47,147 nt of DNA, taken from a phage. Each line of letters starts with the position of its first letter. Position 1 is the stretch's first letter. Made by a program: the position numbers and the translations under genes. The stretch lies in sequence record PZ787336.1; one strand, written 5' to 3'. The notes below the pieces were generated by a model that ran no database searches, was not told the DNA's origin, and saw only the letters and a program-made list of their open reading frames with translations. Positions 5,490 through 22,946 of this stretch are shown here, in pieces.

Positions 5490-6034
5490 GTATTTCAGAT
5501 AGTTTTCGTGAGCGACTTTGCGGACTTTTTAGAAACTGACCACAAAGATAAATGCAAACGATGATGTTGTTCTGATGGCGGCGTAATAGCCTGTAAGTCA
5601 GCAAGGTCTTCCGATTCCTTGTAAACAAATTCGGCGCACTGGCCCGGTGTGATTAATAATGGGCACGCAACAGGTAAGAGCATTGAGAGGTTCGATTCCT
5701 CTTGGTTATTGAGGCCGCGAGGCGCGCTGGAATTGATCAACCAGTGTGAAATCCAATAGGCATAGGTTCAGTGCTCTTTCCGTTGTGGTGAATGCGCAGG
5801 TCGATGCGCAAGTAAGCAACCGATGGCGAGGTAGTGTATAAGGCGGTCGCTGCAAGCCTTGAACTGAAAATCCCGTCACGCCGGAGTTCGACACCGGCCA
5901 CCATAACACTTAACATTCAGCGTTATCGCAATCATATGTAGGGGTATGTATGGGTTACGGGGCTGGATGTTAAGAAAGCATGCTGGCAATGCTTAAACCA
6001 GCAATAAGGCCGCTTCGTGCGGCTTTATTTATTT
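5490..6034 (+). other. promoter-to-terminator plus-strand locus without ORF; candidate non-coding RNA
   Basis: no plus-strand ORF longer than 17 codons; bounded by promoter and hairpin terminator; contains a tRNA-like T-arm GAGAGGTTCGATTCCTCT. Confidence 0.25.
6009..6034. terminator. rho-independent terminator
   Basis: GCCGCttcgtGCGGC followed by tttatttattt. Confidence 0.6.
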
Positions 6035-15558: not shown

Positions 15559-15817
15559 TTAGTACGTCCTCAGCAAGTTTGCGGAACATGATTTGCACTC
15601 TTGCCACTTTGCGCCACTCAGCTTCGGTGAGAATCACATCCTCCTGCTGCGGAATTCCCGACATTTCGCATGGCGGTAATGGCTCATACTCTTGCTTCTT
15701 GCGTTTGGCTTTTCCCATGCTGACCTCTTGCGCTGCGAAGAAGTAAATTAAACAGGTTGCTGACATTAACCTCCTGCTCATGCCATGAGTAACGCCACAG
15801 CTTCTTGTGGTGGTCAT
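15542..15817 (-). CDS. hypothetical protein (start uncertain; may begin at internal Met)
   Basis: ORF begins inside a 19-bp tandem duplication. Confidence 0.4.
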   Translation of the reverse strand: MTTTRSCGVTHGMSRRLMSATCLIYFFAAQEVSMGKAKRKKQEYEPLPPCEMSGIPQQEDVILTEAEWRKVARVQIMFRKLAEDVLNEMGY

Positions 15818-15842
15818 AGCTTCTTGTGGTGGTCATAGCTTC
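15799..15842. repeat. perfect 19-bp tandem direct repeat (agcttcttgtggtggtcat x2 plus partial third copy)
   Basis: two identical adjacent copies at 15799-15817 and 15818-15836 straddling a gene boundary. Confidence 0.6.
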
Positions 15843-16245
15843 GCGTCACATCACCGTTATGAAACATAATGCGGATGCGGCTTTTCACGATGCGATAATC
15901 AATGCCAGTGGTGGTACTGATTTCTTTCACTTCCGCGCCAGCGTTATCAAGCAAATGGCACTTAATAGCATCATCAATACCGGCTGCATCATCAGAGATG
16001 AAATATTTATACTGCCACTTGCCGCCGCGAATCACTGACTTCTCGCGACGAATGAATCCAAGAGCAAGCATCTCATGTAAGCGATGCGTTGTGGTGCTTG
16101 AATGCTTACCTCCGCAATGCTTCTCAATGTATGCGCGCGTTGCTCCGGGGTGATTCATAATCACGCGCATGATTTGTGATTTATAGTCCATAATCACGCT
16201 CCTCTGCTGCCTGATTGAAGTCGTCGGAAGTGTAGAGGTGTCCAC
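15814..16245 (-). CDS. hypothetical protein, possibly truncated by the tandem duplication
   Basis: 143 aa; stop codon lies in the second repeat copy. Confidence 0.45.
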   Translation of the reverse strand: MDTSTLPTTSIRQQRSVIMDYKSQIMRVIMNHPGATRAYIEKHCGGKHSSTTTHRLHEMLALGFIRREKSVIRGGKWQYKYFISDDAAGIDDAIKCHLLDNAGAEVKEISTTTGIDYRIVKSRIRIMFHNGDVTRSYDHHKKL

Positions 16246-16426
16246 CTCTTGTGTTCCATTTCTTCATTGCCGTGGATGCGCAGCAATACGAGTCAGTGCG
16301 GCAAAAACAATCTCCGCACTCAACGTGCAACCATTCGCCGTCATCAATAACACTTACGTCATCACAACCACAAAACGGGCATTCAAGTAATTTCTCATCG
16401 TTCATTAGTAGTGTCATATTGCTCAC
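16181..16426 (-). CDS. Lar-like restriction alleviation protein (zinc-ribbon)
   Basis: 81 aa with CPFCG...C..C pattern and C-terminal KKWNTR, as in Lar-family proteins. Confidence 0.5.
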   Translation of the reverse strand: MSNMTLLMNDEKLLECPFCGCDDVSVIDDGEWLHVECGDCFCRTDSYCCASTAMKKWNTRGGHLYTSDDFNQAAEERDYGL

Positions 16427-16933
16427 CTTTTGTATTCAAAAATTTCCCGTGAACCATCTTTATGAGCCTGTTCCTCTCCTCTTTTGCTTGTGTTATTGAC
16501 GAGAATCTACCTCCATAATAATGCTTGCCATTGGCTGTAATTTGAACCCTCCACCTTTCTCGCGAAGAGTCCCAAACAACATCCTTAACTCCGCTTGTAT
16601 TATTGTTTTTCACGCCTACATTCATAACATTTTGACCTCTTGTGACCAATCTTAGGTTGCTGATGCGATTATCTTTCTTGTTCCCATTTATGTAATCAAT
16701 CTCATATCCGTTTGGTATATCTCCATTGCAAACAATCCACGCCATTCTGTGTGCGTAAAACCTCCCGATGGGGAGTTGAATTCTCCAATACCCATGCGAT
16801 GTAATACCTCCAGCCACCTTCCCTTTCTTTGATTTTCTTGAGAAATATCAATCCATAGAAAGTTTCCTGTATTTTCATCATACTGGAGGAACTTTAAAAT
16901 GCTTTCCTGACTAATGTTGCTCATTTCAACCAT
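16395..16933 (-). CDS. HNH-AP2 homing endonuclease, apparent frameshift
   Basis: N-terminal part (LQYDENTGNFLW...) in ORF 16688..16933, HNH (GYEIDYINGNKKDNRISNLR) and AP2 parts in ORF 16395..16817; frames differ by one base at a short A-run near 16819. Confidence 0.65.
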
Positions 16934-17115
16934 TCTCCCAGATTGTTAAATTTAGGTGTACCCCCAGACCAGTCGATGACATCTCTTTGCTGACTGCGCT
17001 TGCGTTGCAGGCGGTTGCGCACTTCTCGTAACTCGCACTCCAGCCATTCGCGAGTGCGCTCAACTTCATTCAACCTCTGGATTAACGATTCTTCGTACAG
17101 TTCGTCATGCGCCAT
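16921..17115 (-). CDS. hypothetical protein
   Basis: 64 aa ORF in operon. Confidence 0.4.
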   Translation of the reverse strand: MAHDELYEESLIQRLNEVERTREWLECELREVRNRLQRKRSQQRDVIDWSGGTPKFNNLGEWLK

Positions 17116-17175
17116 TTATAATTTCTCCCGTAGAATTTGATAACAACGTGCTCAACGCACAGATAACCTTCATCT

Positions 17176-17373
17176 TCAACCGTTACTGGTTGAACTATAA
17201 ACCACCGCAGATATAAGTTCGTCAGCCTTTTCACGACCCGCAACCTCCGCTTCAAGCGCCAGTGAACACATGGCGGTTTCCACAAACTTAATGGTATCCT
17301 CGCGAACGTTAAGGATTTCCATAACCTCGCGAACTTCCTTCTGGTATCTCGCTGCTATTTCTTTGTATCGCAT
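17176..17373 (-). CDS. hypothetical protein (start at ATG 17373)
   Basis: track ORF starts at a TTG at 17403 inside the promoter region; first ATG is at 17373. Confidence 0.4.
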   Translation of the reverse strand: MRYKEIAARYQKEVREVMEILNVREDTIKFVETAMCSLALEAEVAGREKADELISAVVYSSTSNG

Positions 17374-17384
17374 TTCCACATCAC

Positions 17385-17448
17385 CTTTTCCGTTGTGGTA
17401 CAATCTACGTCAACAAGTATTGACTAAATGATGTAGAAACGTCAAGAT
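17385..17448. promoter_or_regulatory. divergent promoter region (plus TTGACT at 17420-17425; minus-strand TTGACG-TAGATT element at 17401-17413)
   Basis: contains caatctacgtcaa and gatgtagaaacgtcaa, both members of the repeated motif family. Confidence 0.4.
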
Positions 17449-17472
17449 GTTTTTCGAGAAGGAGTAGTAAAT

Positions 17473-17679
17473 ATGCCAAGACCACGACGCGAGCCGATGG
17501 ACATTATCACCAGCATTGTGGAGAAGCGACAACCGCTGACACTCCGTGATGTTCGCTACTTCGCCCGTTGCTATGTGGCGCTGGCTGATATGCCTAAGGA
17601 AGATATGTATGATTTGATTCGGGCCAACTTCAGTGTTGACGAGAATAATAGAGTGACAATGAAAGAGGATGAGAAATGA
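17473..17679 (+). CDS. hypothetical protein
   Basis: 68 aa ORF with GAAGGAG RBS. Confidence 0.45.
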   Translation: MPRPRREPMDIITSIVEKRQPLTLRDVRYFARCYVALADMPKEDMYDLIRANFSVDENNRVTMKEDEK

Positions 17680-18186
17680 GGCATAGGAGAGATGAGCCGA
17701 GTAGGGAGTTTATATTGAGTTACCTTTACTACAATCCACTAACTGGGGAATTTAAATGGCTAAAGACAAGGAATAGGATTGCAGAAAAGGGAGTGTGGCT
17801 GGCTACTTAAAGCCAGATGGATATGTGCAAATAATTCTTTGCGGTAGGGCTTTTCTTGCTCACAGATTGGCATGGATATGCATTCATGGCGCGCCAGCAA
17901 GTGAAATGATTGACCACATAATGGCATTCGCAATGACAACAGGGCGTGCAATTTAAGGGAGGCCAGCAAATTTGAGAATAGCCACAACAAAGCAATGAAC
18001 AAAAACAACACTAGCGGTATCAAGGGGGTTAACTGGAGTTCATCGCACAACAAGTGGCATGCAAGAGTTGGAGTAAATGGCAAAAGATTCACAGTTGGTT
18101 ACTTTTCCGACATAAGAGAAGCAGAAGCAAAAATAAAAGAATTCAGGAGAATGCATCACAATGAGTTCACAAATCACGGGCGATAA
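17676..18186 (+). CDS. HNH-AP2 homing endonuclease, two apparent frameshifts
   Basis: N-terminal YYNPLTGEFKW in frame 1, GYLKPDGYVQI...AHRLAW...IDHI in a second frame, AP2 domain (GIKGVNWSSSHNKWHARVGVNGKRFTVGYF) in ORF 17995..18186; shifts at aaaaggg (17785-17791) and ataatgg (17918-17924). Confidence 0.65.
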
Positions 18187-18463
18187 GCGCCATACTGACG
18201 CAACAGAGCGACTCATCACCGAACGCGGTAGTCGATACGGTAAATTCAAAGACGGCGCTGAAATTATGCAGGAGTTGAAAGATGTGATGCGCGAGGTAGA
18301 TGGCTGGCGCAATCTCACACCAAGTCAACGCGAGGCGCTCGACATGATTCAGCACAAGATTGGGCGCATTCTGAATGGCGACCCGACTTATGATGACAGC
18401 TGGAAAGATATTGCTGGCTATGCAACGTTAATTGTTAATGAACTGAACGGAGAGATTAAATAA
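18161..18463 (+). CDS. hypothetical protein
   Basis: 100 aa ORF. Confidence 0.45.
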   Translation: MSSQITGDKRHTDATERLITERGSRYGKFKDGAEIMQELKDVMREVDGWRNLTPSQREALDMIQHKIGRILNGDPTYDDSWKDIAGYATLIVNELNGEIK

Positions 18464-18738
18464 TGTCTTTTTGCGACATCACAATCGCGCAGCGAAACGC
18501 GAACTTCACCAACATTACTGACACTTCCGCACAACTTGTATCACTGAACAGCGACGGCAGCGCAGTGCTGAAAATCGGCACAGAAACAGCGCAATTCATC
18601 GTGCAGAATCTGTCGCAGGCAAACGCGAAGCAGGTGCTTATTAGCACTGGTAGCGTGCTGTTTCTGGCTGGTAATTACAATGCACCGAATCTTGAGTGCT
18701 CACTGGTGCGGATTGTGGAGGATCATAATGGCGAGTAA
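18463..18738 (+). CDS. hypothetical protein
   Basis: 91 aa ORF coupled to upstream stop. Confidence 0.4.
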   Translation: MSFCDITIAQRNANFTNITDTSAQLVSLNSDGSAVLKIGTETAQFIVQNLSQANAKQVLISTGSVLFLAGNYNAPNLECSLVRIVEDHNGE

Positions 18739-19105
18739 GCCGATTCTTACGGAGGGTAGGCGCGGTAAGTCATGGCTATCCTACCCAAGTCAGTATATGT
18801 ACGATGGCTGGAGAATCGCATTCCCTGCAAAGCATTCCAATGGCAACCCAAGATTGGCTATCCTGTTCAATGAACGTAGCAATGAATGCAGCGGAACGGA
18901 AATTCAAACATTCGATTTGTATCTGCCAGCGAGTGGGAGGATGTATGAAGGGAGTGATGACGAAGCCAGATTTAGGAAGGAAAACTCACCAGCTGCCTAC
19001 ATCGTTACGGATAATCGAGGTAAACGCTATCTGGTGTTTTCTGGTAGCACTGAGCATCAGAATGCAATTATGTTTGGGTACAAGATGGAGGCGCTTTATG
19101 CGTGA
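18728..19105 (+). CDS. hypothetical protein
   Basis: 126 aa from ATG 18728 with GGAGG RBS; the track ORF starts earlier at 18680. Confidence 0.45.
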   Translation: MASKPILTEGRRGKSWLSYPSQYMYDGWRIAFPAKHSNGNPRLAILFNERSNECSGTEIQTFDLYLPASGRMYEGSDDEARFRKENSPAAYIVTDNRGKRYLVFSGSTEHQNAIMFGYKMEALYA

Positions 19106-19130
19106 CATTGGCTACGGAGAAGGTTAAAAC

Positions 19131-19156
19131 AAAGCCCCATCACGGGGCTTTTTTAT
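19131..19156. terminator. bidirectional rho-independent terminator
   Basis: GCCCCatcacGGGGC followed by tttttt, preceded by A-run. Confidence 0.65.
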
Positions 19157-19631
19157 TACGCAGAGAATTATACTGTGCCTCACACGTCAATCCTGCCTCT
19201 CTCGCCCTGTCAGCGTAATCTGCCAGCTGTTGATTTCTTTCGACAGATTTGCGGAGCACGTCTGCAAGCAAAACTCCGGTTTCTGCGGCTGGGTTGCCAA
19301 TGGACTCAGCGGTGGAATATCCGACGAGCTGCTTGCGGATACTGGTGAGTTGTTGCTGCAACCTGCCAGACTTAGCGACAGCATTAACAGCATCATTGCG
19401 CGCAGCATCAATCCTTTGCTGTGCGTCGGCCTGAATCTTTTGCAGTTCTGCATTGCGTCGTTGCTCCTCTTGTTCGTCTGCGGCCTTCTGTTCTGCGACT
19501 GCCTTCGCGTATCCGGCGGCATATTGTTGCTCGCCATAACCGGACACTTTATTTGCCACCCACAACGCGCCAGCGGCAACAATTATAATAATTGCCAGCG
19601 GTCGCCAGTATTTAACGAGAATCGACATCAT
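19140..19631 (-). CDS. Rz: i-spanin (Rz-like)
   Basis: 163 aa, N-terminal transmembrane helix, Ala/Gln/Arg-rich coiled-coil-like periplasmic region; follows endolysin and holin candidate. Confidence 0.65.
   Translation of the reverse strand: MMSILVKYWRPLAIIIIVAAGALWVANKVSGYGEQQYAAGYAKAVAEQKAADEQEEQRRNAELQKIQADAQQRIDAARNDAVNAVAKSGRLQQQLTSIRKQLVGYSTAESIGNPAAETGVLLADVLRKSVERNQQLADYADRAREAGLTCEAQYNSLRNKKAP
19187..19408 (-). CDS. Rz1: o-spanin (Rz1-like lipoprotein) embedded in the Rz gene in another frame
   Basis: MLRAMMLLMLSLSLAGC signal with LAGC lipobox, Pro-rich mature part, fully nested in 19140..19631. Confidence 0.5.
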   Translation of the reverse strand: MLRAMMLLMLSLSLAGCSNNSPVSASSSSDIPPLSPLATQPQKPEFCLQTCSANLSKEINSWQITLTGRERQD

Positions 19632-19851
19632 TGCGCAGCCTCCGGTTTTCCTTCCTCATGCCGTGCATTTTGCCGAGGATGCCGACAAGCATAATTGAGT
19701 AACTCACACCTTTGACCACGATTGGCGGTAGCGCTGCTTTCAGGTCATCCGGCATCATTACCCACACATGCATCATTGCATCAGGCCATAGTTGTAACAG
19801 CGAGCAGAATGAAATCCACGCGGCGAGCAGCCAGTTGCTTAGCTTTTTCAT
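19612..19851 (-). CDS. putative holin (two transmembrane segments, charged C-terminus)
   Basis: 79 aa membrane protein between endolysin and Rz; ATG overlaps the endolysin stop (ATGA). Confidence 0.4.
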   Translation of the reverse strand: MKKLSNWLLAAWISFCSLLQLWPDAMMHVWVMMPDDLKAALPPIVVKGVSYSIMLVGILGKMHGMRKENRRLRNDVDSR

Positions 19852-20311
19852 GCCACAGCTCCGCCAGCCTCTTTGTATACCTGAATCAGCTTATCCAGCT
19901 TCTGCTCATGCTGACCATACCCAGCGCCCGGCAATGAGGCCCAGCGGGAGCGGCATTTATGGATGGCATCAGCAATGCGACCAGCCTCAATATCAGCGGT
20001 GGCCTTGCATTCACGGATTAGCTGCATTGCAATGGCGTCCTGCGATGCGGGGAGAAGTCCGGTAAACGCAATTGCTTTTTGTACGCATCATAAAACTTAG
20101 CCAGTACCTGATAGCGACCGGCGGCGGTGGATTTAATGCCCAGCCTTGGCAGGCTAATCAGCTTGCGCGGGTGGTCGGAATAGTCGGTAAACAGTGAGCC
20201 GCCAACAATCACATCATAACCATGATTATTGGTTTTCTGCCGCCCGTTATCAGTGCCCTCGCTGTACGCCAGCATATCCAGAAACGCCTTCATGTTTTTA
20301 CTAATAGCCAT
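19848..20311 (-). CDS. endolysin, lambda R-like lytic transglycosylase, apparent -1 frameshift
   Basis: N-terminal KAFLDMLAYSEGTDNGRQKTNNHGYDVIVGG...DFSP closely matches lambda R; the C-terminal SQDAIAMQ...WASLPGAGYGQHE continues in another frame after a C4 run (plus 20049-20052). Confidence 0.8.
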
Positions 20312-20579
20312 ACCAGTAAACCTCTTTTTCAGCTTTGCGTTTTGCTTTGTCGCCAGTCTTCTCGCCCCACGCGATGAAATGCGCAACAGCACATGAGAAG
20401 CAGCGGAGGTTGTGCTTCTTCAGAAGCGTTGATTTACGGAACGCGTAAATGCCAATGTCGGTGGCAAGACTTGCCAGCGCGTCGAACTGATTCTGCGTTG
20501 TCTCGGTAGTGATGTAAGGCGATACATCCACGGCATCGGTAATTCCAAACGTCTCCACGCCTCGTTGCGATAGTTTCAT
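20301..20579 (-). CDS. hypothetical protein upstream of endolysin
   Basis: 92 aa with GGAGG RBS; stop overlaps the endolysin ATG; no clear transmembrane helix, so not called holin. Confidence 0.4.
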   Translation of the reverse strand: MKLSQRGVETFGITDAVDVSPYITTETTQNQFDALASLATDIGIYAFRKSTLLKKHNLRCFSCAVAHFIAWGEKTGDKAKRKAEKEVYWYGY

Positions 20580-20605
20580 TCTGCCTCCAGTTCAAATAAT
20601 GATTA

Positions 20606-20616
20606 ATTCTATCACA
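20606..20616 (-). promoter_or_regulatory. extended -10-like promoter (TGTGATAGAAT on minus) for the lysis operon
   Basis: about 20 nt upstream of the ATG at 20579. Confidence 0.4.
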
Positions 20617-20623
20617 ATGACTA

Positions 20624-20654
20624 TTGACGTAGATTGAGTGGTGGTGCATAGTAT
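20624..20654 (+). promoter_or_regulatory. sigma70-like promoter TTGACG...TAGTAT
   Basis: TTGACG 20624-20629 followed by tagattga; TAGTAT 20649-20654; 30 nt upstream of the ATG at 20685. Confidence 0.5.
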
Positions 20655-20684
20655 CTACATCAAATGATGAGTGAGGGAGAAATC

Positions 20685-20828
20685 ATGGCAATAGTCAAAT
20701 TCAAAGAAAGCGGTTGTCGCAGAATGTTCAGCCTTGAGCAAATCAAAATCCGTCCGTGCGGCAAGGTGGTTGCGCCATTTAGTCTGGTGCAGATGCGCGA
20801 AGTTGAGATTGTTGAATATATTAAGTGA
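20685..20828 (+). CDS. hypothetical small protein (47 aa)
   Basis: GAGGGAG RBS; below the track length cutoff. Confidence 0.35.
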   Translation: MAIVKFKESGCRRMFSLEQIKIRPCGKVVAPFSLVQMREVEIVEYIK

Positions 20829-20836
20829 GGTTGGTG

Positions 20837-21088
20837 ATGAAAGAATTTAAAGGAATCCCTGGGTCGTGGCATTACGATGATGAACTTGGTGGGGTCTATA
20901 GTAATGGCGACCAATTCGTGTGCGATGTTACCAATAAGGATGATGCCAACGTCATCGCTGCAGCACCTGAGCTTCTGGAGGCTTTGCAGAAAATGCTCAG
21001 TAAAGCGTATAAGCAAAACTGGAATGACGCATACCCAGAAGTGATTAAATCAGCACAGGATGCAATCAACAAAGCGCTAGGAGAATGA
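20837..21088 (+). CDS. hypothetical protein, paralog of 38762..39043
   Basis: shared EFKG..G(A/S)W, IAAAPELL.ALQ and AINKALG motifs with the second copy. Confidence 0.5.
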   Translation: MKEFKGIPGSWHYDDELGGVYSNGDQFVCDVTNKDDANVIAAAPELLEALQKMLSKAYKQNWNDAYPEVIKSAQDAINKALGE

Positions 21089-21089
21089 A

Positions 21090-21740
21090 ATGAAACTTAT
21101 CGAACTGTTAGTTCAAGAATTACCTAAGCGTGGTGGGTGGAACGAAAACTGGGTGGTGGTTACGCAAGATGCCGACGGCTATTTCTGTTGCTGGCGTTAT
21201 GATGACCCAAGATACAATGGATTTGGCTGGAGACACAGAACAGGAAAGGGTTTAGTTGGATACTGGCGAGTTGATAATGATGTTGTTTTATCATGCGACA
21301 GTACGAAGGCAATGGTAACTAGAAGCCAATACGAATCCGCACTCGCAGCATCACAAAAGCCAACATGGAGCGGCGAAGGCCTACCTCCAGTTGGTGCAAA
21401 AGTAGAATTCTTCATCAATCCAAAGTTAGGATACCGCAATGCCTGGATTCCTGATGCCGGCACTGAAATGGAAGTTGTGGCGCACAAGACAACAACGGAC
21501 GGAAACGATGTTGCTGTTTGCTATTGGGATGAAGGTGGTGCTGGTCGGTCATGCTGCTTCGTACCGGAAAGCCTAAAACCACTACGCACAGAAGCAGAAA
21601 GGAAACATGAGGCCGTACTTGAATCTATCTGTGCGGTATTAGAAATGGTGGCGCAAGATTACAAGCGCGAGGATGGGGCCAAGCTAATTTATGAAGCCAT
21701 CGCAGCAGGCAAAATTCCCGGCGTGAAACTTGATGATTAA
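21090..21740 (+). CDS. hypothetical protein (216 aa)
   Basis: ORF followed by a terminator; no recognised domain. Confidence 0.5.
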   Translation: MKLIELLVQELPKRGGWNENWVVVTQDADGYFCCWRYDDPRYNGFGWRHRTGKGLVGYWRVDNDVVLSCDSTKAMVTRSQYESALAASQKPTWSGEGLPPVGAKVEFFINPKLGYRNAWIPDAGTEMEVVAHKTTTDGNDVAVCYWDEGGAGRSCCFVPESLKPLRTEAERKHEAVLESICAVLEMVAQDYKREDGAKLIYEAIAAGKIPGVKLDD

Positions 21741-21858: not shown

Positions 21859-22946
21859 CTAATTATTCATTATTTCATTCATTAATTCCGGTGAATACTT
21901 TAGCCACTCGGTGCATCCATTGAACCCACTAAGTCCAGCGGACTCATATCTATTATGATAATCGCTCTCCATTGATATTGCATCAACGCCTGAAAGTTTT
22001 ACGTACTTAATCACCTCAAACTCAAATGGCGTACTGCTTCTTAGTTGCATAATGCGTTGCTTTATTTTATTGGTTATCCCCACCTTTATTCCTTTCTCGC
22101 TCATTAGGAAGTAAACATACGATTTCTTATTCTTATCAAATCCTGTTACAGCGCATGATGGACATCCAGAACCTTGTATATGATGTGATGCTCGCTGTAC
22201 GAATACTCCATGGATGGGGCATGTTATTGACACGTTGGAGAGGGAGTTCTTGTAGCCGCACTTATCATAAATGTATTTATCTCCATGGACCGCCATTGAT
22301 TTTCTAGCAAAATCAGCTTCACTATCAGTTTGTGATTTTACTTGCTTGCTCTTACCGCAGGACGGACATCCACATCCAATCAGATGCACTGATGGTTTTT
22401 GCAATAAAACCCCATGAATTTCGCAAAGTATCATTACTTCTTTATTGTTTGCCTCATACTTAACGAGTGAGTAATCATATCTGTCACCATGAATGCCCTT
22501 TGATTTCTCAATAAACAGATCATTGCCAAGAGAATAAGACTTTGCTCTCTTTATGAGTCCGCAGCTAGGGCATCCCTGGCCATGTAAGTGATCTGATGGT
22601 CTTTGTTCAAATTCACCATGTCTTCGACAAACTATTACAACTTTTGATTCGCAATCTTTGTATTTAACTTTCGAGTATTCGTATGTATTAGAATGGATTT
22701 TTTTGCTTTTAATATAAACGATTCTGCATCGCTTCTTTTTGCGTTGCCTCTTCTGATGCACGCACACGCCGGACATCCATTACCAGCTAAATGATTTGAT
22801 GGTGATTGCATAAAATCACCATGCTCGCGACAGGTAATGATGACTTTAGTTTTTGAATTTTTGTAATTAGTCTTTGAATAATCATAACGATCGCCATATC
22901 GACAGATTACTTCAGAGATAAAGCGTGATGTCTTTTCTTTTGACAT
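21859..22946 (-). CDS. homing-endonuclease-like protein with tandem CPxCG zinc-ribbon repeats and C-terminal T5orf172 (GIY-YIG-like) domain, apparent frameshift
   Basis: first repeat unit in ORF 22635..22946, further units and the YVYFLMSEKGIKVGIT...TEW domain in ORF 21859..22776; frames meet at an A7 run (plus T7 at 22698-22704). Confidence 0.6.

What the first reader, a model, noticed from the sequence alone, without database searches (positions are those of the whole stretch)
17676..18186. HNH-AP2 homing endonuclease gene on the plus strand with two apparent frameshifts
Three consecutive overlapping frames carry, in order, the N-terminal YYNPLTGEFKW segment, the HNH core (GYLKPDGYVQI...AHRLAW...IDHI) and the AP2 DNA-binding domain. 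Restoring one base at aaaaggg and one at ataatgg gives a single protein of about 170 aa. Homing endonuclease genes are mobile elements that often sit inside or between conserved phage genes.
Basis: partly seen in the sequence, partly recalled or inferred. Interest (0 to 1): 0.45.

Follow-up and report, generated by a model that had tools for sequence, protein, structure and literature searches.

The report
Broken copy of known homing endonuclease
This is a copy of an already annotated selfish phage gene (an HNH-AP2 homing endonuclease) whose reading frame is broken twice in this sequence by single missing bases; it is an ordinary find, and only the original reads can say whether the breaks are real decay or consensus errors.

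Summary
Window 17676-18186 (+) holds a 170-codon HNH-AP2 homing endonuclease gene split over three frames. Near-identical phages (vB_Eco_ZCEC08, vB_SenS_ST1UNAM, about 15 other assemblies) carry it as one intact annotated ORF. The window differs from ZCEC08 only by two one-base deletions, A5>A4 after 17788 and TT>T after 17919, the second right after the catalytic His codon.

The restored protein hits Pfam HNH_3. Its model matches I-HmuI in the N-terminal part and AP2 domains in the C-terminal part. The gene is free-standing, between a 68-aa gene and a DUF6378 gene. Only 3 of 163 related phage records have it, and it is better conserved than its flanks, as expected of a mobile element.

Both deletions are unique to this sequence. 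They belong to a small set of unique lesions: a second HNH gene (frameshift plus catalytic His>Tyr), a 19-bp duplication in a MarR-like gene, one intergenic deletion, and a frameshift in the only complete endolysin.

Other assemblies carry different frameshifts in this gene, so real decay occurs in the clade. The endolysin break argues for consensus error. I put real decay at about 0.5 and artefact at about 0.4. It is already known and of low interest.

The parts
17676..17788 (+). HEG segment 1: native codons 1-38, the N-terminal strands with YYNPLTGEFKW. ATG 17676 overlaps the TGA of the upstream gene (ATGA). As written this frame runs on to a stop at 17808-17810, giving a 44-aa product.
17785..17788 (+). 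Break 1: an A4 run where every relative has A5. This is a one-base deletion unique to the window.
17789..17919 (+). HEG segment 2: native codons 39-82, the HNH core (GYLKPDGYVQI...AHRLAW...IDH). The catalytic His codon CAC is at 17915-17917.
17919..17920 (+). Break 2: ATTAAT in relatives (ATCAAT in Lewi) reads ATAAT here. It is a one-base deletion unique to the window. It lies in the codon after the catalytic His, so the rest of the HNH motif (NGIRNDNRACNLR) is out of frame.
17920..18186 (+). HEG segment 3: native codons 83-170, covering the rest of the HNH motif, a linker and the AP2 DNA-binding domain (about 18013-18150). Stop TAA is at 18184-18186. The longest ORF in this frame starts at ATG 17995 (63 aa, the whole AP2 domain).
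17473..17679 (+). Upstream neighbour: a conserved 68-aa early gene (phrog_14963). It marks the left border of the insertion site.
18161..18463 (+). Downstream neighbour: a DUF6378 / phrog_17775 gene. Its start codon and first ~9 codons lie inside the 3' end of the HEG, and it lacks the first ~73 positions of the family profile. The HEG block replaces the 5' part that this gene has in HEG-less relatives. It marks the right border of the site (…CTGACGCAACAGAGC).
16395..16924 (-). A second free-standing HNH_3 endonuclease gene, 176 aa when intact in ZCEC08. It is also broken only in the window: a one-base deletion (TT>T) after 16846, plus catalytic His>Tyr (codon 16692-16694, CAC>TAC), which also destroys a GATC site.

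Best explanation
The locus is a copy of a known free-standing HNH-AP2 homing endonuclease gene of Jersey-like (Guernseyvirinae-type) enterobacterial siphophages.

How the intact gene is expected to work: it makes a 170-aa enzyme with N-terminal strands and an I-HmuI-like HNH (beta-beta-alpha-metal) nuclease core, joined to a C-terminal AP2 DNA-binding domain. By inference from the family, it cuts or nicks the HEG-less allele of a co-infecting relative, between the 68-aa gene and the DUF6378 gene. Recombinational repair then copies the HEG, together with the new 5' end it supplies to the downstream gene, into that genome.

In this genome the copy cannot do so. Two one-base deletions, at codon 38 and at the codon after the catalytic His, leave a 44-aa N-terminal peptide as the only product from the native start. 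My committed reading is that these are genuine inactivating mutations, that is, a very recent stage of the invasion-fixation-decay cycle of a selfish gene.

Shown: identity, domain architecture, the two lesions and their uniqueness, mobility signatures, and the existence of other broken alleles.
Inferred: the cleavage and homing mechanism, and that the lesions are in the phage DNA rather than only in the consensus.
For: Identity
- 99.6% nucleotide identity to the annotated HEGs WVQ01302.1 and WEV89072.1.
- HNH_3 at 42.1 bits and PHROG_99 at 3e-64.
- AF2 model with pLDDT 92.6. Its N-terminal part matches I-HmuI 1U3E (prob 1.0, 98 columns). Its C-terminal part matches AP2 domains 7ET4, 7ET5 and 1GCC (prob 0.99-1.0, rmsd 1.3-1.4 A).

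Mobility
- Present in 3 of 163 flank-matching phage records.
- Empty site in CHRF_10023.1 and other cargo in Bas81 and ZK22.
- In diverged backgrounds the HEG is 97.3-99.4% identical and the 500-bp flanks 89.6-96.2%.

Genuine decay
- Other assemblies carry different frameshift alleles of this gene. L018 and L019, two separate Salmonella assemblies, share an A3>A2 deletion. L019 adds G5>G6, L020 has T4>T3, and MAG protein P0124 is truncated.
- Three of the four coding one-base deletions fall in the two HEGs, which make up 2.2% of the genome, and one more is intergenic.
- The neighbouring HEG also has a catalytic His>Tyr substitution, which is not an indel-type error.
- A 19-bp duplication between 6-bp direct repeats, in a MarR-like gene 1.9 kb away, looks like a classical slippage mutation.
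- All 21 comparable homopolymers of 6-9 bases have the same length as in relatives. Three of the five deletions are in TT dinucleotides. This is not the profile of length-dependent homopolymer miscalling.
- Frameshifted phage HEGs, including an HNH-AP2 gene split into HNH and AP2 ORFs, are described in ICP1 phages (PMC10448857).
Against: - The same kind of lesion, a unique one-base deletion in a run (G5>G4 at 20049-20052), breaks the lambda-R-type endolysin at codon 88 of 154. All 140 related records have the full length there. The protein is a full-length homologue of lambda lysozyme.
- The upstream 92-aa 'lysozyme' is only the C-terminal half of another endolysin type, and no other endolysin turned up. 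A plaque-forming phage should not carry this break, so at least one lesion of this type is probably a record error.
- The HEG has two indels but no substitution against ZCEC08.
- In the 4.2-kb block 16921-21140 the window has 3 singleton substitutions and 3 singleton deletions. The relatives together have 30 substitutions and 0 indels.
- Four of the five deletions lie within 3.2 kb, which could reflect a locally poor consensus.
- No other public sequence shares the window's deletions.
Confidence: 0.5

Rival explanations
1. Sequencing or assembly artefact. The phage carries the intact 170-codon HEG, as ZCEC08 and ST1UNAM do. The two missing bases are consensus errors, part of a handful of one-base under-calls in short runs concentrated in a locally poor stretch (about 15.8-20.1 kb) of this circularised assembly.
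For: - The endolysin, the only complete one in the genome, is broken by the same kind of unique one-base deletion.
- All five unique one-base events are deletions in runs of two or more identical bases, and there are no unique one-base insertions.
- There are no substitutions in the HEG against ZCEC08.
- The singleton indel-to-substitution ratio is 3:3 in the window and 0:30 in relatives.
- Three of the deletions share the context ATTA>ATA, which makes up 12% of TT contexts. This hints at a systematic process.
- The window is a circularly closed contig that starts inside a gene, as automated assemblies do.
Against: - Errors spread by sequence content would rarely put 3 of 5 hits in two genes that cover 2.2% of the genome (about 1.6 times the average run density).
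- All comparable runs of 6-9 bases are correct.
- No other gene in the remaining ~43 kb is frame-broken.
- The His>Tyr change and the 19-bp duplication are not under-call errors.
- Real broken alleles of this gene exist elsewhere.
Confidence: 0.4
2. Exaptation of the remnant. After the breaks, the 63-aa ORF from ATG 17995 would be expressed as a stand-alone AP2 DNA-binding protein acting as a regulator. AP2 and CapR domains of HEG origin are used this way in satellites and in anti-CRISPR repressors.
For: - The ORF 17995-18186 contains the whole AP2 domain (AP2 at 25.6 bits; fold match).
- Precedents for HEG-derived DNA-binding domains used as repressors exist (PMC10448857; bioRxiv 10.64898/2026.02.23.707548).
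Against: - There is no obvious Shine-Dalgarno sequence upstream of ATG 17995 (sequence).
- The arrangement is unique to this sequence and shows no sign of selection, since it has no substitutions.
- No gene with this product is on record.
Confidence: 0.04
3. Programmed recoding. The ribosome shifts -1 twice and still makes the full enzyme, as a way of keeping nuclease levels low.
For: At break 1 the reading GAA AAG contains the A_AAG motif, which is known from general knowledge to allow -1 slippage of tRNA-Lys in E. coli. A -1 shift there would restore exactly the native ...AEKGSVAG... sequence.
Against: - Break 2 (CAC ATA ATG) has no slippery motif.
- All relatives encode the protein in one frame, so the frameshifts are not conserved.
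- Other broken alleles are broken at other places.
Confidence: 0.01

Closest known systems
HNH homing endonuclease WVQ01302.1 of Escherichia phage vB_Eco_ZCEC08 (PP213477) and WEV89072.1 of Salmonella phage vB_SenS_ST1UNAM (OQ469755); protein cluster P0001
   Same: It is the same gene at the same locus with the same neighbours. Nucleotide identity is 99.6% over 1.1 kb, and there are no substitutions against ZCEC08 inside the ORF.
   Different: The window lacks one A of the A5 run and one T of ATTAAT. One 170-codon ORF therefore becomes three out-of-frame pieces.
HNH-AP2 homing endonucleases (Magnani, Sjolander and Hake 2004, Plant Cell 16:2265, cited in PMC10448857), including the 'IPA-HNH' genes of Vibrio phage ICP1. 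ICP1 gp115/gp116 is one such gene split by a frameshift (PMC10448857).
   Same: The architecture is the same: an N-terminal HNH nuclease plus a C-terminal AP2 DNA-binding domain, in a free-standing phage gene. It is variably present and often frameshifted.
   Different: The ICP1 genes reportedly needed HMM-HMM searches to detect their HNH domain, whereas this one hits Pfam HNH_3 directly. Membership of the IPA-HNH profile was not tested here. Host and phage lineage also differ.
I-HmuI of Bacillus phage SPO1 (PDB 1U3E)
   Same: This is the closest solved structure. The N-terminal strands and the HNH core superpose (Foldseek prob 1.0, 98 columns, rmsd 3.1 A). The motif HRL...DH..G...N...NLR aligns.
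   Different: Sequence similarity is marginal (E 0.14). From general knowledge, I-HmuI is intron-encoded, nicks one strand, and has a helical C-terminal DNA-binding part rather than AP2.
Free-standing seg and mob endonuclease genes of T4-like phages (general knowledge)
   Same: They share the lifestyle: inserted between, and overlapping, conserved genes, sporadically distributed, and spread by cutting HEG-less relatives in mixed infection.
   Different: Most of them use a different nuclease family (GIY-YIG), a different DNA-binding module and a different phage lineage.

Membership tests
HNH endonucleases, Pfam HNH_3 (PF13392) | Score above the Pfam gathering cutoff | tested here: met
   The restored 170-aa protein scores 42.1 bits against a cutoff of 24.8, at residues 61-103. 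None of the three window ORF pieces reaches the cutoff on its own.
HNH endonucleases, Pfam HNH_3 (PF13392) | Catalytic motif: His general base in 'DH', followed by the conserved Asn residues (DHxxGxxxDNxxxNLR) | tested here: met
   H63, R64, D80, H81, N83, D88, N89, N93, R95 and N102 are invariant in 48 homologues and present in the restored protein. In the window the motif is cut in two by break 2, immediately after DHI.
HNH endonucleases, Pfam HNH_3 (PF13392) | Beta-beta-alpha-metal fold | tested here: met
   AF2 model with pLDDT 92.6. The best PDB match is I-HmuI 1U3E, prob 1.0.
HNH endonucleases, Pfam HNH_3 (PF13392) | One uninterrupted ORF able to produce the enzyme in this genome | tested here: not met
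   There are two one-base deletions, and the product from the native start is 44 aa.
AP2 DNA-binding domain (PF00847) | Score above the Pfam gathering cutoff | tested here: inconclusive
   The score is 23.0 bits for the whole protein and 25.6 bits for the 63-aa piece, against a cutoff of 33.3, with E 1e-4 to 1.5e-5. Many homologues have PF00847 on record.
AP2 DNA-binding domain (PF00847) | Three-stranded sheet packed on one helix, superposable on solved AP2 domains | tested here: met
   Strands 119-122, 127-134 and 137-144 plus helix 147-161. Foldseek matches 7ET5, 7ET4 and 1GCC with prob 0.99-1.0 and rmsd 1.3-1.4 A over 43-47 residues.
Free-standing homing endonuclease gene (functional class) | Sporadic presence or absence at one locus among close relatives, with an identifiable empty site | tested here: met
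   3 of 163 flank-matching records carry it. The empty site is in CHRF_10023.1, and Bas81 and ZK22 hold other cargo.
Free-standing homing endonuclease gene (functional class) | Element more conserved than its flanks across diverged genomes (recent lateral spread) | tested here: met
   The HEG is 97.3-99.4% identical and the flanks 89.6-96.2% in L003, L015, L018 and L019.
Free-standing homing endonuclease gene (functional class) | Site-specific cleavage of the HEG-less allele and over-inheritance in mixed infection | not testable with these tools
   This needs enzyme assays and co-infection crosses.
Programmed ribosomal frameshifting | Frameshift sites conserved in relatives, with slippery motifs at each site | tested here: not met
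   Relatives have a single ORF. Only site 1 has a slippery-like A_AAG, and site 2 has none.

The most novel reading that the evidence does not exclude
All the unique lesions are real and were selected together. In this reading the genome is a lysis-defective, nuclease-silenced derivative of a normally virulent Jersey-like phage. It would persist without killing its host, for example as a ParB-equipped episome in a carrier-state culture, after knock-outs of host-damaging genes. Those knock-outs would be both HNH endonucleases (one of them also hit at its catalytic His), the only complete endolysin, and a MarR-like regulator. Close relatives do turn up as ~47-kb contigs in Salmonella and E. coli isolate assemblies, two of them with this HEG broken.

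Against this reading: a T5orf172-type nuclease gene, the holin, the spanin and all structural genes are intact.
Probability: 0.06. Interest if true: 0.55.

Novelty: already known. Interest (0 to 1): 0.14.

Why it matters
It matters little beyond annotation. The three small ORFs at 17676-18186 should be annotated as one disrupted HNH-AP2 homing endonuclease gene, not as three hypothetical proteins. The record should be checked for consensus errors, because an essential lysis gene is broken in the same way.

If the lesions are real, this genome and the other broken alleles found here would give a small natural series for one selfish gene: intact, once-hit and twice-hit copies. The hits would be short-run indels with no accompanying substitutions, which bears on how fast homing endonuclease genes decay after fixation.

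Tried and rejected
1. Finding the source or a second copy of the broken allele.
- Exact look-ups of the 44-aa and 63-aa fragments, the 140-aa fragment of the second HEG, and the tailspike found nothing on record.
- A 32-mer from the HEG has no exact match in IMG/VR, JGI metagenome or GTDB genome contigs.
- There is no megablast match in complete E. coli genomes or in PLSDB plasmids.

2. Programmed frameshifting. Rejected: the sites are not conserved and site 2 is not slippery.

3. A methylation-site (Dam/Dcm) miscall signature that would have pointed to nanopore-only data. The His>Tyr change destroys a GATC. However, GATC and CCWGG are strongly avoided and turn over quickly in all relatives, so this is not diagnostic.

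4. A G>A mutagenesis signature. The four unique substitutions near the locus are all G>A on the + strand, but genome-wide the window-specific changes have an ordinary transition-rich spectrum.

5. A length-dependent homopolymer error model. It is poorly supported, because all comparable runs of 6-9 bases are correct.

6. A back-up endolysin.
- The 92-aa 'lysozyme' upstream is only the C-terminal half of a T4L/P22-type enzyme.
- No other lysin was found among the ORFs of the regions without a ZCEC08 match.

7. Further frame breaks elsewhere. None was found with ORFs of three complete relatives.

Full report
**What is there.**
- The window is a complete, circularly closed genome of 47,147 bp. 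One gene runs across the two ends.
- It belongs to a Jersey-like enterobacterial siphophage. The closest phage records are Escherichia phage vB_Eco_ZCEC08, Salmonella phage vB_SenS_ST1UNAM and Escherichia phage HC6.
- A 1.1-kb query around the locus matches ZCEC08 and ST1UNAM at 99.6% over 1103 bases against 1101 in the window.
- In both records the region is one annotated 513-nt gene, named 'HNH homing endonuclease' and 'zinc-binding loop region of homing endonuclease'.
- The alignment shows exactly two one-base gaps in the window. They are A5>A4 (run 17785-17788) and ATTAAT>ATAAT (after 17919). There are no substitutions against ZCEC08 inside the ORF.

**What the gene is.**
- The restored 170-aa protein hits Pfam HNH_3 at 42.1 bits (cutoff 24.8) and PHROG_99 'HNH endonuclease' at E 3e-64.
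- It hits AP2 below Pfam's cutoff, at 23 bits against 33.3.
- A search of the large protein collection gives 277 homologues at E<=1e-10. Most are 155-205 aa, many have both PF13392 and PF00847 on record, and the identical-length cluster P0001 is seen on many phage-sized contigs.
- In an alignment of 48 homologues the HNH residues H63, R64, D80, H81, N83, D88, N89, N93, R95 and N102 are invariant.
- An AlphaFold2 model built on that alignment has mean pLDDT 92.6.
- Against the PDB, its N-terminal two thirds match I-HmuI (1U3E, prob 1.0). Its C-terminal third matches solved AP2 domains (7ET5, 7ET4 and 1GCC, prob 0.99-1.0, rmsd 1.3-1.4 A).
- At sequence level I-HmuI is only a marginal hit (E 0.14), but the motif aligns.
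- This HNH-plus-AP2 architecture is a described family of homing endonucleases (Magnani et al. 2004, as cited in PMC10448857).

**Where it sits, and evidence that it is mobile.**
- The ATG at 17676 overlaps the stop of a conserved 68-aa gene (ATGA).
- The last 26 nt of the HEG overlap the start of a DUF6378 / phrog_17775 gene at 18161-18463.
- That gene lacks the first ~73 positions of its family profile here.
- In Salmonella phage CHRF_10023.1 the two neighbours abut directly. In Bas81 and ZK22 the downstream gene has a longer, unrelated 5' part or extra cargo.
- The HEG block therefore replaces the 5' end of the downstream gene and gives it a new start.
- Of 163 phage records that match the flanks, only three carry the HEG.
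- In diverged backgrounds (Lewi, L015, L018, L019) the HEG is 97.3-99.4% identical to the window's copy, while the 500-bp flanks are 89.6-96.2%. Recent lateral spread would leave this pattern.
- Its G+C content is 42.3% against 46.5% for the genome.
- Cleavage specificity and homing could not be tested.

**Are the two frameshifts real?**
- Both deletions are unique to the window among ZCEC08, ST1UNAM, Lewi and ten further assemblies.
- They are part of a short list of window-unique lesions found by whole-genome comparison:
  - TT>T after 16846 in a second HNH_3 gene on the minus strand (16395-16924).
  - The two deletions in the target gene.
  - G5>G4 at 20049-20052 in the endolysin.
  - TT>T after 27308 in the spacer after the large terminase gene.
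  - A 19-bp tandem duplication (AGCTTCTTGTGGTGGTCAT twice, 15798-15835) in a MarR-like gene.
- No other gene is frame-broken.

*Arguments for consensus error.*
- The endolysin is a full-length homologue of lambda lysozyme R (E 6e-62 to 1AM7 and 3D3D). It has the full length in all 140 related records.
- It has no back-up. The 92-aa 'lysozyme' upstream matches only residues 69-143 of a T4L/P22-type enzyme.
- A plaque-forming phage should not carry this break.
- All five unique one-base events are deletions in runs.
- The HEG shows two indels and no substitution.
- In the block 16921-21140 the window has 3 singleton substitutions and 3 singleton deletions. The relatives together have 30 substitutions and no indel.

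*Arguments for real mutations.*
- Three of the four coding deletions hit the two HEGs, which make up 2.2% of the genome and have only about 1.6 times the average run density.
- All 21 comparable homopolymers of 6-9 bases are correct, while three of the five deletions are in mere TT dinucleotides.
- The second HEG also has a unique substitution of its catalytic His by Tyr. All six relatives have His there.
- The 19-bp duplication lies between 6-bp direct repeats, the classical footprint of replication slippage.
- Other assemblies carry other frameshift alleles of this same gene:
  - Two separate Salmonella isolate assemblies share an A3>A2 deletion, and one of them adds G5>G6.
  - A Logan contig has T4>T3.
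  - A MAG protein is truncated.
  - In the two Salmonella contigs the endolysin is intact.
- Frameshifted HEGs, including an HNH-AP2 gene split into separate HNH and AP2 ORFs, are reported as typical for ICP1 phages (PMC10448857).

*Weighing.* I put genuine decay of the HEG at about 0.5, possibly with the endolysin lesion being a separate error. I put a pure artefact at about 0.4. The sequence alone cannot settle this. The reads can.

**Leads that went nowhere.**
- The His>Tyr change removes a GATC site. GATC (38 sites against ~180 expected) and CCWGG are avoided and turn over fast in all relatives. So the change is neither a clear methylation miscall nor clearly directed at the active site.
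- The local G>A bias disappears genome-wide.
- Programmed frameshifting is excluded by the intact ORF in relatives and by the lack of a slippery site at break 2.
- The source of the window could not be found in any collection.

**Verdict.**
- The element is an already annotated, already described kind of selfish gene, here in a disrupted state.
- Novelty is nil and interest is low.
- The practical consequences are two. The locus should be annotated as one disrupted gene. The record should be checked against its reads, because an essential gene is broken in the same manner.

Noticed in passing
window 16395-16924 (-): This is a second free-standing HNH_3 endonuclease gene, 176 aa in ZCEC08 and absent from ST1UNAM and HC6. 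It lies between a Lar-like gene and a 64-aa gene. Only in the window is it broken, by TT>T after 16846. Only in the window is its catalytic His replaced by Tyr (codon 16692-16694), a change that also removes a GATC site.
   Followed up: yes
window 19848-20311 (-), run 20049-20052: The lambda-R-type endolysin (154 aa in 140 relatives) is frameshifted at codon 88 by a one-base deletion (G5>G4 on the + strand). An ATG for residues 96-154 sits 4-6 nt before the stop of the N-terminal fragment. No other complete endolysin was found in the genome.
   Followed up: yes
window 15798-15835, in the gene 15687-16191 (-): A 19-bp tandem duplication (AGCTTCTTGTGGTGGTCAT twice) lies between 6-bp direct repeats and is unique to the window. 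It shifts the frame of a MarR-like regulator (phrog_1687, 162 aa in relatives) at about codon 123.
   Followed up: partly
window 27308: A unique one-base deletion (GATTATA>GATATA) lies in the spacer between the large terminase gene and the next gene. It has the same ATTA>ATA context as the deletions at 16846 and 17919.
   Followed up: partly
window 21859-22776 (-): An intact 305-aa gene with T5orf172/MUG113 (GIY-YIG-like) and zinc-finger-like domains (phrog_681 'endonuclease') sits next to the head-morphogenesis gene. The region has no match in ZCEC08. It is probably a third, different homing endonuclease gene.
   Followed up: partly
window 20304-20582 (-): The 92-aa gene annotated 'lysozyme' or 'endolysin' in relatives matches only the C-terminal half (residues 69-143) of the T4L/P22-type endolysin of phage HC6. 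It looks like a remnant left when the lambda-R-type lysin cassette came in.
   Followed up: partly
whole window: GATC is about five-fold under-represented (38 sites against ~180 expected), and CCWGG is also scarce (25 sites). Both motifs are gained and lost much faster than average sites among the relatives.
   Followed up: partly
whole window; region about 5640-5870: ARAGORN finds no tRNA gene in the window, although ZCEC08 and HC6 annotate a tRNA-Ile at the corresponding place. The window is heavily rearranged there, with many indels against ZCEC08.
   Followed up: no
L018 6747-7838 (Salmonella Derby assembly GCA_044981465.1, contig ABWJWK010000033.1): A related phage contig carries a 363-aa IS605 OrfB/TnpB (Cas12f-like) gene inserted beside the lysis cassette.
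   Followed up: no
L016 2506-3249; L010 1493-1900 and 1976-2515: Other short-read assemblies of relatives also show one-base length differences in accessory early genes. In L016 the second HEG is fused to the Lar-like gene (T4>T3). In L010 a phiTE_015-like gene is split and the MarR-like gene is longer.
   Followed up: no
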